A stretch of 63,546 nt of DNA, filler included, from Collodictyon triciliatum (taxonomy: Eukaryota): assembly GCA_043381765.1 (NCBI GenBank). It is 20 parts of 20 records of this genome, joined end to end, with 100 filler letters (N's around TTAATTAATTAA, not from the genome) between each part and the next. Parts side by side here need not be neighbours in the genome. Positions count along the whole stretch, not along the records: positions 48,353 to 51,469 come from JBHJMP010007767.1; 19 more parts are not named here. The stretch is one strand, 5' to 3'. Below are positions 48,353 through 51,469 of the stretch, piece by piece. The notes below the pieces were generated by a model. That model was not told where the DNA came from, made no database searches, and was given only the letters and a program-made list of their open reading frames with translations. Each line of letters begins with the position of its first letter. Positions within the stretch are counted from its first letter, which is position 1. The translations under genes and the position numbers were made by a program.

Positions 48353-51300
48353 ATCTTTGATTGTATTGATGCCATTTCTTGCGCAGAATCCCATGACGAA
48401 TTGAGCGTTTGCGTATCCCATTTCACCATATTTCTTGATTTTTTCATATGCATGTATGTTGCTTTCCTTTGCAACACTACCATACATTTCAATAGCTTTC
48501 TCGGTGTCCCTCTGAACACCCCATCCATTCTCATAGCATTCAGCAACAATAGAAACAGCCTGTGGATATTTGTATTTTTCATTCCAATCATATTTCATAC
48601 CAGCCATATCTTTCAAAACATTGAATGCCTCTTTTGAGCCTTGTTGGGCGAGTTGCTTCAATTTGTCAAAGTTTTTAGCTTTTCCAAACCATTCGACAGC
48701 TTTCTCGATGTCTTTTTCAACACCCCATCCATTCTCATAGCATTCAGCAACAATAGAAACAGCCTGTGGATATATGTATCTTCCATATTTATATATTTCA
48801 GCCATTTCTTTTAAAACATTGAATGCCTCCTTTGAACCTTGTTGTGCAAGTTCTTTCAGTTTGTCAAAGTTTTTAGCTGCTTTTATTGACAATAGATTCC
48901 ATTCATCAGCTTTCTCGGTGTCCTTCTCAACGCCCCATCCATTCCTATAGCATTCAGCAACAATAGAAACAACCTGTGGATGTATGTATCTCCCATCCTC
49001 CTTCTTTTCAGCCATTTCTTTCAAAACGCTGAATACCTCCTTTGAGCCTTGTTGTGCAAGTTGCTTCAATTTGTCAAAATTTTCAGCTTTTCCAAGCCAC
49101 TCGATAGCTTTCTCGGTGTCCTTTTCAACACCCCATCCATTCTCATAGCATTCATCCATCATCTGAGCCTGGAACATGGTGAACTTTCCCTGCTCACAAT
49201 AGGCAACAAAGTCCGCATCAAAGGAAGCAGCACCTTCTTGCAGGAATAGTTTCTTGTTCATCGCATCCAGTTCAGCTCTGTTGATATGAGTGTTCGCAGC
49301 TTCTAGTGTTCTTGGACCAATAATTCGAACAGTTCTCACGTTCATTATTCTGCTTGTATCAATCATATTCATCGCATCACTTGTTTTGTTGAATACCGCG
49401 ATGACTTCTGGTTTAACTTTCATGACCAATTGGCTCTTCTCATTGTAGGTCGCTTCTGATTTTTTCAGGCTGTGTATTTGGTTTCCTGTGGCTACATCCC
49501 AAATACGTATTGTTTTATCACGACTTCCAGAAGCCAACCAATTTTCATCATTCGGTCCTTGAATACTGCAAACACTCAAGACAACACTTGTATGACATTC
49601 TAATGTCTTGATTTGGTTTCCTGTAACTACATCCCAAATGCGTAATGTATCATCACGACTTCCAGAAGCTAACCAATTTTCACCATTCGGTCCTTGAATA
49701 CTGCAAACACTGGTGACATCATTTGTATGACCTTCTAATGTTGGCTTTGGTTCGCTAGCCAAATACGTATTGTTTTATCACTACTTCCAGAAGCCAGCCA
49801 ATTTTCACCATTTCGTCCTTGAATGCTGCAAACACTATTGACATCACCTATATGTCCTTCTAATGTTTTGATATGATTTCCTGTGCCAACATCCCAAATA
49901 CGTATTGTTTTATCACGACCTCCAGAAGCCAACCAATTTTCACCATTCGGTCCTTGAATACTGCAAACACTGGTTACACACCATGCATGTCCTTCTAATG
50001 TTTTGATTTGGTTTCTTGTGGCTACATCCCAAATGCGTATTGTTTTATCAAAACTTCCAGAAGCCAGCCACTTTTCACCATTCGGTCCTTGAATACTGCA
50101 AACACTCATGACTGGCTCTGAATGGCCTTCTAATATTTTGATTTGGTTTCCTGTGGCTACATCCCAAATGCGTATTGTTTTATCCCCACTTCCAGAAGCC
50201 AACCAACTTTCATCATTCGGTCCTTGAATACTGCAAACACTCATGACACGCTCTGTATGACCTTCTAATGTTTTGATTTGGTTTCCTGTGGCTACATCCC
50301 AAATACGTATTGTTTTATCACGACTTCCAGAGGCCAGCCAATTTTCACCATTCGGTCCTTGAATACTGCAAACACTATTGACTTCTCTTGTATGACCTTC
50401 TAATATTTTGATTTGGTTTCCTGTGGCTACATCCCAAATACGTAATGTTTCATCACGACTTCCAGAGGCCAGCCAATTTTCACCATTCGGTCCTTGAATA
50501 CTGCAAACACTATTGACTTCTCTTGTATGGCCTTCTAATATTTTAATTTGGCTTCCTGTGCCTACATCCCAAATTCGTATTGTTTTATCATCACTTCCAG
50601 AAGCCAACCACTTTTCACCATTCGGTCCTTTAATATTGCAAACACTCAAGACAACACCTGTATGCCCATTTAATGTTTTGATTTGGCTTCCTGTGGCTAC
50701 ATCCCAAATACGTACTGTATTATCACTACTTCCAGAAGCCAGCCAATTTTCACCATTCCGTCCTTGAATACTGCAAACACTGTTTACAGGTTTTGTATGT
50801 CCTTCTAATGTTTTGATTTGGTTTCCTGTGGCTACATCCCAAATACGTATTGCTGTATCAAAACTTCCAGAAGCCAGCCAATTTTCACCATTCCGTCCTT
50901 GAATGCTGCAAACACTCATGACACCACCTGTATGCCCTTCCAATGTTTTGATATGGTTTCCTGTGGTTACATCCCAAATTCGTATTGTTTTATCATAACT
51001 TCCAGAAGCCAGCCAATTTTCACCATTCGGTCCTTTAATATTGCAAACACTATTGACTGGCTCTGTATGTCCTTCTAATGTTTTGATATGGTTTCCTGTG
51101 GCTACATCCCAAATACGTAATGTGTTATCATCGCTTCCAGAAGCCAACCAATTTTCACCATTCGGTCCTTGGATGCTGCAAACACTATTGACACGACTTG
51201 TATGTCCTTCTAATATTTTAATCTGGTTTCCTGTGGTTACATCCCAAATACGTATTGTTTCATCACCACTTCCAGAGGCCAGCCAAGTTTCACCATTCGG

Positions 51301-51469
51301 TCCTTTAATACTGCCAACACTATTGACAACATCTGTATGGCCCAAAAACAAAGGCAAGCGACCAAAACTGACGCCTTTCATAATCGCATTGTCAAAAACA
51401 CAGTTTGAAATGCACGCATTATAGAACAAAACACCCTCCAAGTTGGCACCAGTGAAGTCAGCACCATCA
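48353..51469 (-). CDS. Pentapeptide repeats + 14 WD40 repeats + Sel1-like repeats; truncated at both ends, one frameshift near 49750
   Basis: DGADFTGANLEGVLF... pentapeptides; 14 units of 45 aa (GH...WLASGSxDxTIRIWD); four AECYENGWGVEKDxEKA Sel1-like units. ORFs 49735-51441 and 48305-49762 continue the same repeat register. Confidence 0.9.
49467..51345 (-). repeat. 135-bp tandem WD40-coding repeat, 14 copies
   Basis: Nearly invariant blocks such as caccattcggtccttgaatactgcaaacac recur every 135 nt. Confidence 0.95.

What the first reader, a model, noticed from the sequence alone, without database searches (positions are those of the whole stretch)
48353..51469. Candidate protist non-self receptor: homogenised 14-blade WD40 array with hypervariable codons, fused to Sel1-like repeats
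Seen in sequence: 14 WD40 units of 135 nt are almost identical, yet five positions vary strongly (GHT-x-x-V-x-SV and GS-x-D-x-T). At GS-x-D the codons are GGT, GAT, TAT, TTT, AGT, GAT, CGT, CGT, GGG, TTT, CGT, AGT, CGT, CGT. The first two bases vary while the third stays T in 13 of 14, so nearly every change alters the amino acid. Established: fungal HNWD NLRs (HET-D/HET-E) combine repeat homogenisation with diversifying selection on the propeller binding face, and pentapeptide repeats commonly sit between NACHT and WD40 domains. Inference: this is the sensor end of an NLR-like protein with two 7-blade propellers. The extra C-terminal array of conserved Sel1-like repeats is an architecture I do not recognise.
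Basis: partly seen in the sequence, partly recalled or inferred. Interest (0 to 1): 0.75.

Follow-up and report, generated by a model that had tools for sequence, protein, structure and literature searches.

The report
Hypervariable WD40–Sel1 receptor fragment, protist
A 3.1-kb contig from a fragmented eukaryote assembly encodes the sensor end of what is probably an immune-receptor-like ATPase, with 14 look-alike WD40 blades that differ mainly at ligand-facing positions, a design known from fungi and bacteria but rarely seen in protists.

Summary
On the minus strand of 48353-51469 there are 14 tandem 135-nt WD40 units, and the GS-x-D codons are exactly as listed.

- **Similarity:** "almost identical" is overstated. 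Units are 86% alike in DNA and 78% in protein.
- **Selection:** four codons (4, 5, 7, 26) change amino acid 3-5 times faster than the gene-wide silent rate. The fifth, codon 28, is not significant.
- **Location:** they lie in the d-a loop, the start of strand a and the b-c turn. These are the places selected in fungal HET-D/E.
- **Context:** the window is about 20 unrelated contigs joined by spacers, so the finding is one whole contig, open at both ends. No ATPase can be seen.
- **Relatives:** the only ones found sharing the pentapeptide-WD40-linker-Sel1 order are three Diphylleia rotans transcripts. The two with full N-termini carry a NACHT domain upstream.
- **Damage:** a 10-nt shortfall breaks the frame in unit 12.

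Verdict: probable sensor half of a protist NACHT receptor, a new variant of a known kind. This copy may be broken or mis-assembled.

The parts
51343..51468 (-). Pentapeptide-repeat stretch, cut off by the contig end, plus the short lead-in (GRLPLFL) to the first blade.
   Evidence: Pfam PF00805 at 29.5 bits (cut-off 20.2), matching profile positions 10-40 of 40. Colinear with P0252 residues 930 onward.
49858..51342 (-). WD40 units 1-11, 135 nt each, in one frame.
   Evidence: Exact 45-codon register. WD40 E 3e-120. Units 1-7 modelled as a 28-strand propeller with pLDDT 93.2.
49733..49857 (-). WD40 unit 12, 10 nt short. The frame is broken after IRIW and a stop follows at 49735-49737 in the upstream frame.
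   Evidence: Sequence and unit comparison. The two overlapping ORFs are listed.
49463..49732 (-). WD40 units 13-14, in the second frame.
   Evidence: They are as similar to units 1-12 as those are to each other (0.80-0.89).
49190..49462 (-). Linker of about 90-100 residues with no known family. It is the family-specific part shared with the Diphylleia rotans proteins.
   Evidence: No Pfam hit on the 101-residue stretch 49175-49477, which covers this linker and a few flanking residues on each side. Modelled with pLDDT under 50. Aligns to P0252, P0332 and P0096.
48353..49189 (-). Sel1-like helical array: four units of 66-70 residues (S1-S4) that run off the contig end.
   Evidence: PF08238 at 93.7 bits, 4 stretches. 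Helical model with pLDDT 85-97. Foldseek finds Sel1-repeat proteins at E 5e-8. Units S1-S3 are 65-76% identical with dN/dS about 0.3.

Best explanation
The contig is the 3' two-thirds (about 1,050 codons) of a gene for a large STAND/NLR-like protein of a free-living eukaryotic microbe.

Inferred order of parts: [missing effector + NACHT-type ATPase + helical region] - pentapeptide beta-helix - 14 WD40 blades (probably two 7-blade propellers) - about 100-residue linker - Sel1-like helical solenoid.

Shown:
- The parts present and their order.
- The blades belong to one homogenised pool.
- Amino-acid change is concentrated, above the silent rate, at four codons in the d-a loop, the start of strand a and the b-c turn.
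- The Sel1 units are under purifying selection.

Inferred:
- These loops form the propeller's top (ligand-binding) face. This is established WD40 topology, and Paoletti 2007 mapped the same loops to the top face.
- The WD40 array is therefore a diversifying ligand sensor.
- Binding of a non-self or altered-self protein would release the upstream ATPase to oligomerise and switch on an effector, as in fungal HET-D/HET-E and bacterial NLR-like proteins.
- The conserved Sel1 array would be a constant docking or auto-inhibitory module, not the variable sensor.

This particular copy carries a frameshift in blade 12. It may be a recently broken copy or an assembly error.
For: - **Anatomy:**
- **Homogenisation:** mean DNA identity 0.86, with no dependence on distance between units (lags 1-7 give 0.86-0.875). 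Protein identity is 0.78, against 0.22-0.45 among blades of the three relatives.
- **Diversification (pairwise):** the five variable codons have dN 0.96, while the other 40 codons have dN 0.067 and dS 0.22.
- **Diversification (simulation):** 0 of 1000 neutral simulations reach the observed value.
- **Diversification (tree counts):** codons 4, 5, 7 and 26 run at 5.2, 5.3, 2.9 and 4.0 times the gene-wide silent rate, with Poisson p of 2e-8, 1e-7, 1.2e-3 and 7.6e-5, uncorrected for 45 codons.
- **Variety:** 14 of 14 units carry a different residue combination at the variable positions.
- **Location:** strand map of a pLDDT-93 model. Best solved matches are 7-blade WD40 propellers (5yzv_B TM 0.80/0.89, and WDR5).
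- **Fungal parallel:** Paoletti 2007 reports selected pairs flanking a conserved residue in the d-a loop and the b-c turn (passages).
- **Upstream ATPase in relatives:** P0252 is NACHT-like + pentapeptide + WD40 + linker + Sel1 array. P0332 is DUF4062 + NACHT + TPR + pentapeptide + WD40 + linker + Sel1.
- **Colinearity:** the contig aligns with P0252 at 43% over 230 residues at the pentapeptide/WD40 junction, and at 33% over 264 residues across the linker.
- **Sel1 with NACHT elsewhere:** NACHT plus Sel1 occurs in other database proteins by precomputed Pfam (P0039, P0122).
Against: - No NTPase, effector or start codon lies on the contig, and no longer copy was found: no run holds more than 12% of the sampled words, and four collection scans found no relative of the family.
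- NACHT scores in the relatives are marginal (26.4 and 27.1 bits against a 26.7 cut-off).
- The relatives are only 33-51% identical, and their blades are not homogenised.
- The frame is broken in unit 12.
- Protein identity between units (78%) is below the 85% used for 'high internal conservation' in fungal NLRs (Dyrka 2014, passages).
- The selection tests are crude. The variable codons were picked after looking. The models are Jukes-Cantor and parsimony. The tree was built from the other codons and ignores recombination, which inflates counts at the tested codons.
- Repeat order and number in a short-read contig of 135-nt repeats may be wrong.
- Function is wholly inferred.
Confidence: 0.6

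Rival explanations
1. The protein is a WD40-Sel1 scaffold with a different or no N-terminal enzyme (kinase, peptidase, TIR only). It would not be a STAND/NLR-type receptor, and the variable positions would only reflect relaxed constraint on loops.
For: The contig shows no ATPase. Sel1 arrays in the database are fused to kinases, TIR, caspase-like and other domains. The best WD40 matches of P0001 include kinase-WD40 and peptidase-WD40 proteins of cyanobacteria.
Against: Of the three relatives found that share the specific linker and order of parts, the two with full N-termini have a NACHT-type domain, and the third is N-terminally cut. Amino-acid change at codons 4, 5 and 26 exceeds the silent rate, which relaxed constraint alone cannot give.
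Confidence: 0.15
2. This copy is a pseudogene: a recently inactivated member of a fast-turnover receptor family. This overlaps with the main reading.
For: Unit 12 is 10 nt short, with several small differences from the consensus, and a stop follows after 7 codons. Broken repetitive propellers are reported to be common in such families (Pereira and Lupas 2022, passages; Paoletti 2007, passages).
Against: The 474 codons after the break are still open, and the Sel1 units show dN/dS of about 0.3. So the break is very recent or an artefact. No contig bridging the site was shown, so the laid runs neither confirm nor refute it.
Confidence: 0.3
3. The array is an assembly construct. A short-read assembler threaded units from several paralogous loci into one path, so the count of 14, the order of units and the frameshift are not those of a real locus.
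For: The assembly is highly fragmented: 3.1-kb contigs, most of which end in simple repeats, whereas this one ends inside coding repeats. Public runs hold hundreds of short contigs 90-99% like parts of the stretch (325 and 311 laid in X1 and X2; 221 and 197 fit two places). They also hold joined forms that skip repeat units, for example 49835 to 50258 in X1 and X2.
Against: Units differ at about 14% of bases, enough for unique paths with ordinary k-mers. Register is exact across 11 consecutive units. The hypervariability conclusion does not depend on unit order.
Confidence: 0.25
4. The contig comes from a bacterium (contaminant, prey or symbiont) in the assembly, not from the eukaryote.
For: It has no introns over 3.1 kb. 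Repetitive WD40 arrays on NACHT-type ATPases, and pentapeptide repeats, are frequent in bacteria. Third-position G+C of this gene (0.27-0.35) differs from several other ORFs in the window (0.41-0.72).
Against: The only relatives with the specific linker are from a eukaryote transcriptome, and one of them is fused to a MIB_HERC2 domain at 58.3 bits. That this domain is eukaryotic is recalled, not tested. Two scans of one genome for each of 185,579 prokaryote species found no relative. Other clearly eukaryotic ORFs in the window are also intron-free over 2.4 kb, and the RasGEF_N ORF has similar third-position G+C of 0.31.
Confidence: 0.1

Closest known systems
Podospora anserina HNWD/NWD receptors (HET-D, HET-E, HET-R): NACHT + highly internally conserved WD40 repeats
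   Same: Tandem WD40 units kept alike, with amino-acid-changing variation in pairs that flank a conserved residue, in the d-a loop and in the b-c turn (Paoletti 2007, passages; here). Broken copies occur in the family.
   Different: The unit is 45 residues, not 42, with a longer a-b loop. Identity between units is 78%, not about 85%. A pentapeptide stretch lies before the array and a linker plus Sel1 array after it. The host is not a fungus. NACHT and HET domains are not seen here. Exchange between paralogues is not shown.
Diphylleia rotans transcripts P0252, P0332 and P0096 (EukProt EP00002; unnamed in print as far as searched)
   Same: Same order of parts (pentapeptide, 45-residue WD40 units with the GPNGExWLASGS loop, specific linker, Sel1-like units), with 33-51% identity.
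   Different: Their blades are diverged (22-45% identity). Blade numbers differ (5, 16 and 8 units could be anchored by motif). P0332 and P0096 add TPR, and P0096 ends in MIB_HERC2.
Bacterial repetitive WD40 sensors on STAND ATPases (the WRAP type of cyanobacteria; Dunin-Horkawicz 2014 as cited in Pereira and Lupas 2022)
   Same: Recently amplified, nearly symmetric WD40 blades, often 14, on NLR-like ATPases, with frequent frameshifted copies (passages; earlier scan notes).
   Different: Those are prokaryotic and have no Sel1 tail. Here the nearest relatives are eukaryotic.
TEP1/NWD1/NWD2/NPHP3-type NACHT proteins with WD40 or TPR repeats
   Same: P0332 has DUF4062, NACHT and a weak NPHP3_N match, followed by TPR and WD40. 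[quoted passage not shown]
   Different: This applies to a relative and not to the contig. Whether DUF4062 equals the TeTIR domain was not stated in the passages seen.
NACHT-PPR-WD40 NOD-like receptors of Mortierellomycota and Mycoavidus (Ciach 2024, PMC11291939)
   Same: A three-part order with a repeat module between NACHT and WD40 (passages).
   Different: The passages do not spell out 'PPR', so equivalence to the pentapeptide stretch here is unverified. No Sel1 tail is reported.

Membership tests
NLR / STAND NTPase with C-terminal repeat sensor | Central NACHT or NB-ARC P-loop NTPase domain | not testable with these tools
   The contig ends inside the pentapeptide stretch. No genome is held and no longer copy was found. 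In the relatives, NACHT scores 26.4 bits (cut-off 26.7) in P0252 and 27.1 bits in P0332.
NLR / STAND NTPase with C-terminal repeat sensor | C-terminal superstructure-forming repeats (WD40, TPR, ANK, LRR and similar) | tested here: met
   WD40 E 3e-120 with 14 units. Sel1 at 93.7 bits.
NLR / STAND NTPase with C-terminal repeat sensor | N-terminal effector or signalling domain | not testable with these tools
   It lies off the contig. P0332 has DUF4062 at 44.2 bits upstream of NACHT.
HNWD/NWD-type hypervariable WD40 array | High internal repeat conservation (over 85% protein identity over at least 100 residues; Dyrka 2014) | tested here: not met
   Mean 78% (71-93%) in protein and 86% in DNA. 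This passes the 60% symmetry cut-off of Pereira and Lupas 2022 (passages).
HNWD/NWD-type hypervariable WD40 array | Codons with dN above dS in the d-a loop and the b-c turn | tested here: met
   Codons 4, 5, 7 and 26 run at 2.9-5.3 times the silent rate, and 0 of 1000 neutral simulations reach the observed value. Loop positions come from the model. Codon 28 is not significant (p 0.15).
HNWD/NWD-type hypervariable WD40 array | Concerted evolution: exchange of units within and between paralogues, and repeat-number variation | tested here: inconclusive
   Identity does not fall with distance between units. Contigs in X1 and X2 skip a net 405 nt, which is 3 units. No second copy lies in the window, and paralogues could not be compared.
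HNWD/NWD-type hypervariable WD40 array | 42-residue unit and fungal host with HET/NACHT N-terminus | tested here: not met
   The unit is 45 residues. The nearest relatives are from Diphylleia rotans, which is not a fungus. The N-terminus is unseen.
Sel1-like repeat (SLR) proteins | Pfam PF08238 repeats that form a helical solenoid | tested here: met
   93.7 bits, 4 stretches. Helical model. Foldseek finds Sel1-repeat proteins at E 5e-8, though TM is only 0.2-0.26.
Pentapeptide repeat | Pfam PF00805 above cut-off | tested here: met
   29.5 bits against 20.2, cut off by the contig end.
Diphylleia-type NACHT-pentapeptide-WD40-linker-Sel1 proteins | Colinear alignment through the pentapeptide/WD40 junction and the family-specific linker | tested here: met
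   43% over 230 residues. 33% over 264 residues including the linker. A single stretch covers query residues 3-136 in P0332.

The most novel reading that the evidence does not exclude
A deep-branching free-living protist, possibly allied to Diphyllatea (CRuMs), maintains a multigene repertoire of NACHT-pentapeptide-WD40-Sel1 receptors. The WD40 blades are continually homogenised and diversified at ligand-contact residues. This would be an innate-immunity or self/non-self system of the fungal HET-E type that arose or persisted outside fungi and bacteria, with a second, constant Sel1 module as a new element of the receptor. The hundreds of 90-99% similar short contigs in two small coded runs and in freshwater metagenome and metatranscriptome runs would be its paralogues.
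Probability: 0.3. Interest if true: 0.7.

Novelty: new variant of a known kind. Interest (0 to 1): 0.45.

Why it matters
Repeat sensors that are kept uniform yet diversify at contact residues are a hallmark of fungal allorecognition and immune receptors and of bacterial NLR-like proteins. In one survey, 84% of eukaryotic highly repetitive propellers were fungal (Pereira and Lupas 2022, passages).

A case in an unrelated unicellular eukaryote, with full-length NACHT-bearing relatives in Diphylleia rotans, would mean that the same evolutionary device serves immunity or self-recognition in protists. It would also give a tractable family for asking what such receptors detect in single-celled predators, for example giant viruses, bacteria or conspecifics.

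The added Sel1 array offers a test of whether NLR-like proteins can carry a variable and a constant repeat module in tandem.

The value is limited by the fragment's state: no N-terminus, a frameshift and a poor assembly.

Tried and rejected
- **Window neighbours as genomic context:** rejected. The window is a chain of separate contigs.
- **Own genome:** none is held.
- **Close relatives of the WD40 part among proteins of 317-1010 residues:** only generic WD40 proteins, at most 52% identical.
- **Full-library HMMER search with the linker:** the top 150 of 5244 hits were mostly generic Sel1 matches. Only P0252 and P0332 covered the linker, and lower ranks were not seen.
- **Collection scans:** Metagenome contigs and genome contigs were each scanned twice, with the linker+Sel1 part and with P0001. 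They found nothing except one 24%-identical WD40 locus, L001.
- **Sequencing runs:** no run holds more than 12% of the sampled words. The laid runs are short contigs, and none shown bridges the frameshift, so they cannot decide it and give no copy number. Presence of similar pieces in one metatranscriptome run is not proof of transcription of this gene.
- **Intron at the break:** GT...AG candidates of 12, 27 and 30 nt keep the frame. A 32-nt one would restore the frame only by deleting strands c and d of blade 12. Rejected by reading.
- **Taxon from a neighbouring contig:** the DSP-gelsolin protein has a best hit of 30% identity to plant MKP1, which is uninformative.
- **Rfam and tRNA scan:** only two tRNAs.
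- **Earlier scan notes:** none for this genome or sequence.
- **Literature:** searches for pentapeptide/NACHT/WD40/Sel1 and for NLR/NACHT/protists/WD40 found no paper describing this architecture or such arrays in protists. Supplementary tables of Dyrka 2014 and Pereira and Lupas 2022, which could list non-fungal eukaryotic cases, were not seen.
- **Technical failures:** crashed after printing its main results, and the remaining figures were recomputed. One search failed on a too-short search term and was redone.
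Full report
**What the window is.** The 63,546-base window is not one stretch of a genome. N-runs of 44 bases flanking the 12-mer TTAATTAATTAA recur about every 3.2 kb and cut the window into about 20 pieces of 3,115-3,129 bases, with a shorter last piece. Most of the pieces end in simple repeats. 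The finding, 48353-51469, is exactly one such piece: a 3,117-base contig whose coding sequence runs off both ends. The neighbours in the window are therefore not genomic neighbours, and no whole genome is held.

**The observation.**
- Tandem Repeats Finder reports a 135-base period, 13.9 copies and 85% matches at 49476-51339.
- The gene lies on the minus strand. One frame (49738-51468, P0001) gives 35 residues of pentapeptide repeat and 12 WD40 units. A second frame (48353-49774, P0002) gives two more units, a linker and Sel1-like repeats.
- Cut at each GH, the 14 units are in exact 45-codon register.
- Pfam confirms WD40 (E 3e-120), Sel1 (93.7 bits, four stretches) and Pentapeptide (29.5 bits against a cut-off of 20.2, truncated by the contig end). 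The 101-residue stretch covering the linker matches nothing.
- Two corrections apply. The units are 80-97% (mean 86%) identical in DNA and 71-93% (mean 78%) in protein, so they are similar and not nearly identical. Unit 12 is 10 bases short, which shifts the frame and brings a stop after seven codons.

**Is the variation more than chance?**
The other 40 codons have dN 0.067 and dS 0.22.
- Per codon, pN is 0.69, 0.62, 0.59 and 0.52 at codons 5, 4, 26 and 7. It then drops to 0.35, 0.33 and 0.30 at codons 36, 28 and 43.
- In 1000 simulations all 45 codons evolved neutrally along a tree of the units, scaled to the observed silent divergence. The mean pN of the five most variable codons averaged 0.391 (sd 0.035, maximum 0.548) and never reached the observed 0.553.
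- Parsimony counts on the same tree give amino-acid-changing rates of 5.2, 5.3, 2.9 and 4.0 times the gene-wide silent rate at codons 4, 5, 7 and 26. The Poisson p values are 2e-8, 1e-7, 1.2e-3 and 7.6e-5, uncorrected for 45 codons. Codon 28 reaches 1.7 times (p 0.15).
- All 14 units carry a different residue combination at these positions.
- These tests are crude. The sites were chosen after inspection. The tree was built without them and ignores recombination, which inflates counts at the tested codons. The pairwise figures need no tree and point the same way.
Across the five codons, third positions vary as much as the others, but there too the changes mostly alter the amino acid.

**Where the variable residues sit.**
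- Units 1-7 with their lead-in fold, without an alignment, into a 28-strand all-beta model (mean pLDDT 93.2, pTM 0.90).
- The best solved matches are 7-blade WD40 propellers: 5yzv_B with TM 0.80/0.89, a designed 7-blade propeller, and WDR5.
- In unit numbering, positions 1-5 are the d-a loop, 6-13 strand a, 14-18 the a-b loop, 19-25 strand b, 26-28 the b-c turn, 29-34 strand c, 35-39 the c-d loop and 40-45 strand d.
- Codons 4 and 5 are thus in the d-a loop, codon 7 is the second residue of strand a, and codons 26 and 28 are in the b-c turn. By the established topology of WD40 propellers both loops are on the top, ligand-binding face.
- Paoletti et al. 2007 (passages read) found the same arrangement in Podospora HET-D/HET-E. 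Pair 7/9 around conserved residue 8 lies in the d-a loop, and pair 25/27 around residue 26 lies in the b-c turn, on top of the propeller.
- Here the pairs are 5/7 around V6 and 26/28 around D27. The three extra residues of the 45-residue unit lie in the a-b loop.

**What lies upstream.**
- The contig itself cannot tell. A search with the linker and Sel1 part among longer proteins gave mostly generic Sel1 proteins at 22-33% identity. One hit, P0096, was 51% identical over the end of the linker and the first Sel1 unit.
- A full HMMER search with the linker against 1.84 billion representatives listed 150 of 5,244 hits. Nearly all matched only the Sel1 motif. P0332 matched query residues 3-136 in one stretch and P0252 matched residues 31-117.
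- All three carry the public label Diphylleia rotans (EukProt transcriptome).
- P0252 (2,169 residues) has a P-loop domain matching NACHT over 165 of 167 profile positions (26.4 bits, just below the 26.7 cut-off). This is followed by pentapeptide, WD40, the linker and a long array of Sel1-like units with the same 'GKA-NFD-L-QLA' insert as here.
- P0332 (2,619 residues) has DUF4062 (44.2 bits), NACHT (27.1 bits), TPR, pentapeptide, at least 16 WD40 units of the same 45-residue type, the linker and one Sel1 unit.
- P0096 starts after the P-loop and ends in a MIB_HERC2 domain (58.3 bits).
- The contig's first 230 residues align colinearly with P0252 residues 930-1159 at 43% identity. P0002 aligns across the linker at 33%.
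- So the order pentapeptide-WD40-linker-Sel1 is not unique to this contig. In the two relatives with full N-termini it follows a NACHT-type ATPase.
- Their blades, however, are ordinary diverged blades (22-45% identity). The homogenised, hypervariable state is special to the window's copy.

**The Sel1 part.** Four units of 66-70 residues (S1-S4) each hold one Sel1 motif and a second helical pair. S1-S3 are 65-76% identical, with dS 0.4-0.8 and dN/dS of about 0.3. They are therefore older and under purifying selection. The model is helical with pLDDT 85-97 over the array and below 50 over the linker. Foldseek finds Sel1-repeat proteins (E 5e-8) with low TM-scores. NACHT proteins with Sel1 arrays exist in the database by precomputed Pfam (P0039, P0122), so Sel1 can be a STAND repeat module. 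The combination with WD40 in one chain was seen only in this family.

**Whose gene is it?**
- Other contigs in the window encode eukaryote-type proteins: a SibA-like Ig protein, protein kinases, an MKP1-like phosphatase with gelsolin domains, and RasGEF_N. Some of these have intron-free reading frames of 2.4 kb, so lack of introns is no argument for a bacterium.
- Third-position G+C ranges from 0.27 to 0.72 among these ORFs. The assembly may hold more than one organism, or a genome of uneven composition. This gene (0.27-0.35) resembles the RasGEF_N ORF (0.31).
- Two scans of one genome for each of 185,579 prokaryote species found no relative. Two scans of JGI metagenome contigs found only one 24%-identical WD40 locus.
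- The phosphatase's best match is 30% identical (plant MKP1), so the organism has no close sequenced relative in the protein collection.
- The shared family suggests kinship with Diphyllatea. That is a guess.

**Public runs.** No run holds more than 12% of the contig's sampled words. Laid at 90% likeness, two small coded runs (X1, X2), one freshwater metagenome run (X3) and one freshwater metatranscriptome run (X5) hold 325, 311, 81 and 111 short contigs matching parts of the stretch. Of these, 98, 81, 29 and 31 match at 99% or more. Most fit two places of the stretch, and some skip repeat units: in both X1 and X2 a joint from 49835 to 50258 has 17 other letters between, a net 405 bases or three units. 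This shows that near-identical and related repeat units exist in other data sets. It fits a multi-copy family or repeat-number variants, but it gives no copy number, no proof of transcription and no verdict on the frameshift.

**The frameshift.** Against the unit consensus, unit 12 lacks 10 bases in the stretch coding strand c's end to strand d, with several small differences and not one clean deletion. GT...AG candidates do not give a sensible intron. The 474 codons downstream are open and conserved, so the break is either very recent or an assembly or sequencing error. Frameshifted repetitive propellers are reported as frequent in bacterial WD40 sensor families (Pereira and Lupas 2022, passages), and pseudogenes occur in the Podospora family.

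**Comparison with what is known.**
- The design is established in fungi: a homogenised WD40 array with diversifying top-face residues on a NACHT-type ATPase (Paoletti 2007; Dyrka 2014, passages). It is also established in bacteria (Pereira and Lupas 2022), and this scan has already noted many bacterial cases.
- By Dyrka's 85% protein-identity criterion this array falls short. It passes Pereira and Lupas's 60% symmetry cut-off.
- In their survey, fungi made up 84% of eukaryotic highly repetitive propellers.
- My searches found no paper describing such arrays in protists, or the WD40-plus-Sel1 tail. Supplementary tables that might list such cases were not available.
- I file it as a new variant of a known kind. 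The new elements are a non-fungal eukaryotic host, a 45-residue unit, a pentapeptide lead-in and a conserved Sel1 tail.

**Verdict.** The sensor-with-diversifying-face reading is well supported. The NLR reading rests on relatives, and the function is inferred. Confidence in the main explanation is 0.6 and interest is 0.45.

Noticed in passing
window 1-63546: The window is about 20 separate contigs of about 3.1 kb, in roughly descending length, joined by N44-TTAATTAATTAA-N44 spacers. Most contigs begin or end in microsatellites. Any finding that relies on gene neighbourhood across spacers in this window is unsafe.
   Followed up: yes
window 52069-54489 (-): An intron-free 807-residue ORF with a dual-specificity phosphatase domain and gelsolin-type domains, like plant MKP1. 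The best database match is only 30% identical. It begins with a PQ repeat from a CTGTGG microsatellite.
   Followed up: partly
window 3232-5724 (-): An ORF of at least 831 residues, open at the contig end, with a SibA-like Ig domain, DUF4114 and bacterial-type Ig/cadherin-like domains. It is probably a surface adhesion protein.
   Followed up: no
window 16645-16717 and 18728-18798 (+): tRNA-Ala (anticodon AGC) and tRNA-Gly (GCC) lie 2 kb apart on one contig. That an AGC anticodon for alanine is typical of eukaryotes is recalled, not tested.
   Followed up: no
window, long ORFs on several contigs: Third-position G+C of long ORFs ranges from 0.27 to 0.72 between contigs. The assembly may mix organisms, or the genome may be compositionally uneven.
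   Followed up: partly
window 13050-15098 (+): A 683-residue open frame with no Pfam match.
   Followed up: no
window 49234: In all four laid runs, contigs that match 49133-49234 diverge at the same place, with similar loose ends. The Sel1 module's start seems to be a conserved boundary, beyond which related copies differ by more than 10%.
   Followed up: no
P0096 (Diphylleia rotans), C-terminus: A relative of this family ends in a MIB_HERC2 domain (58.3 bits) after the first Sel1 unit. This hints at a link to ubiquitin ligase partners; that association of the domain is recalled.
   Followed up: partly
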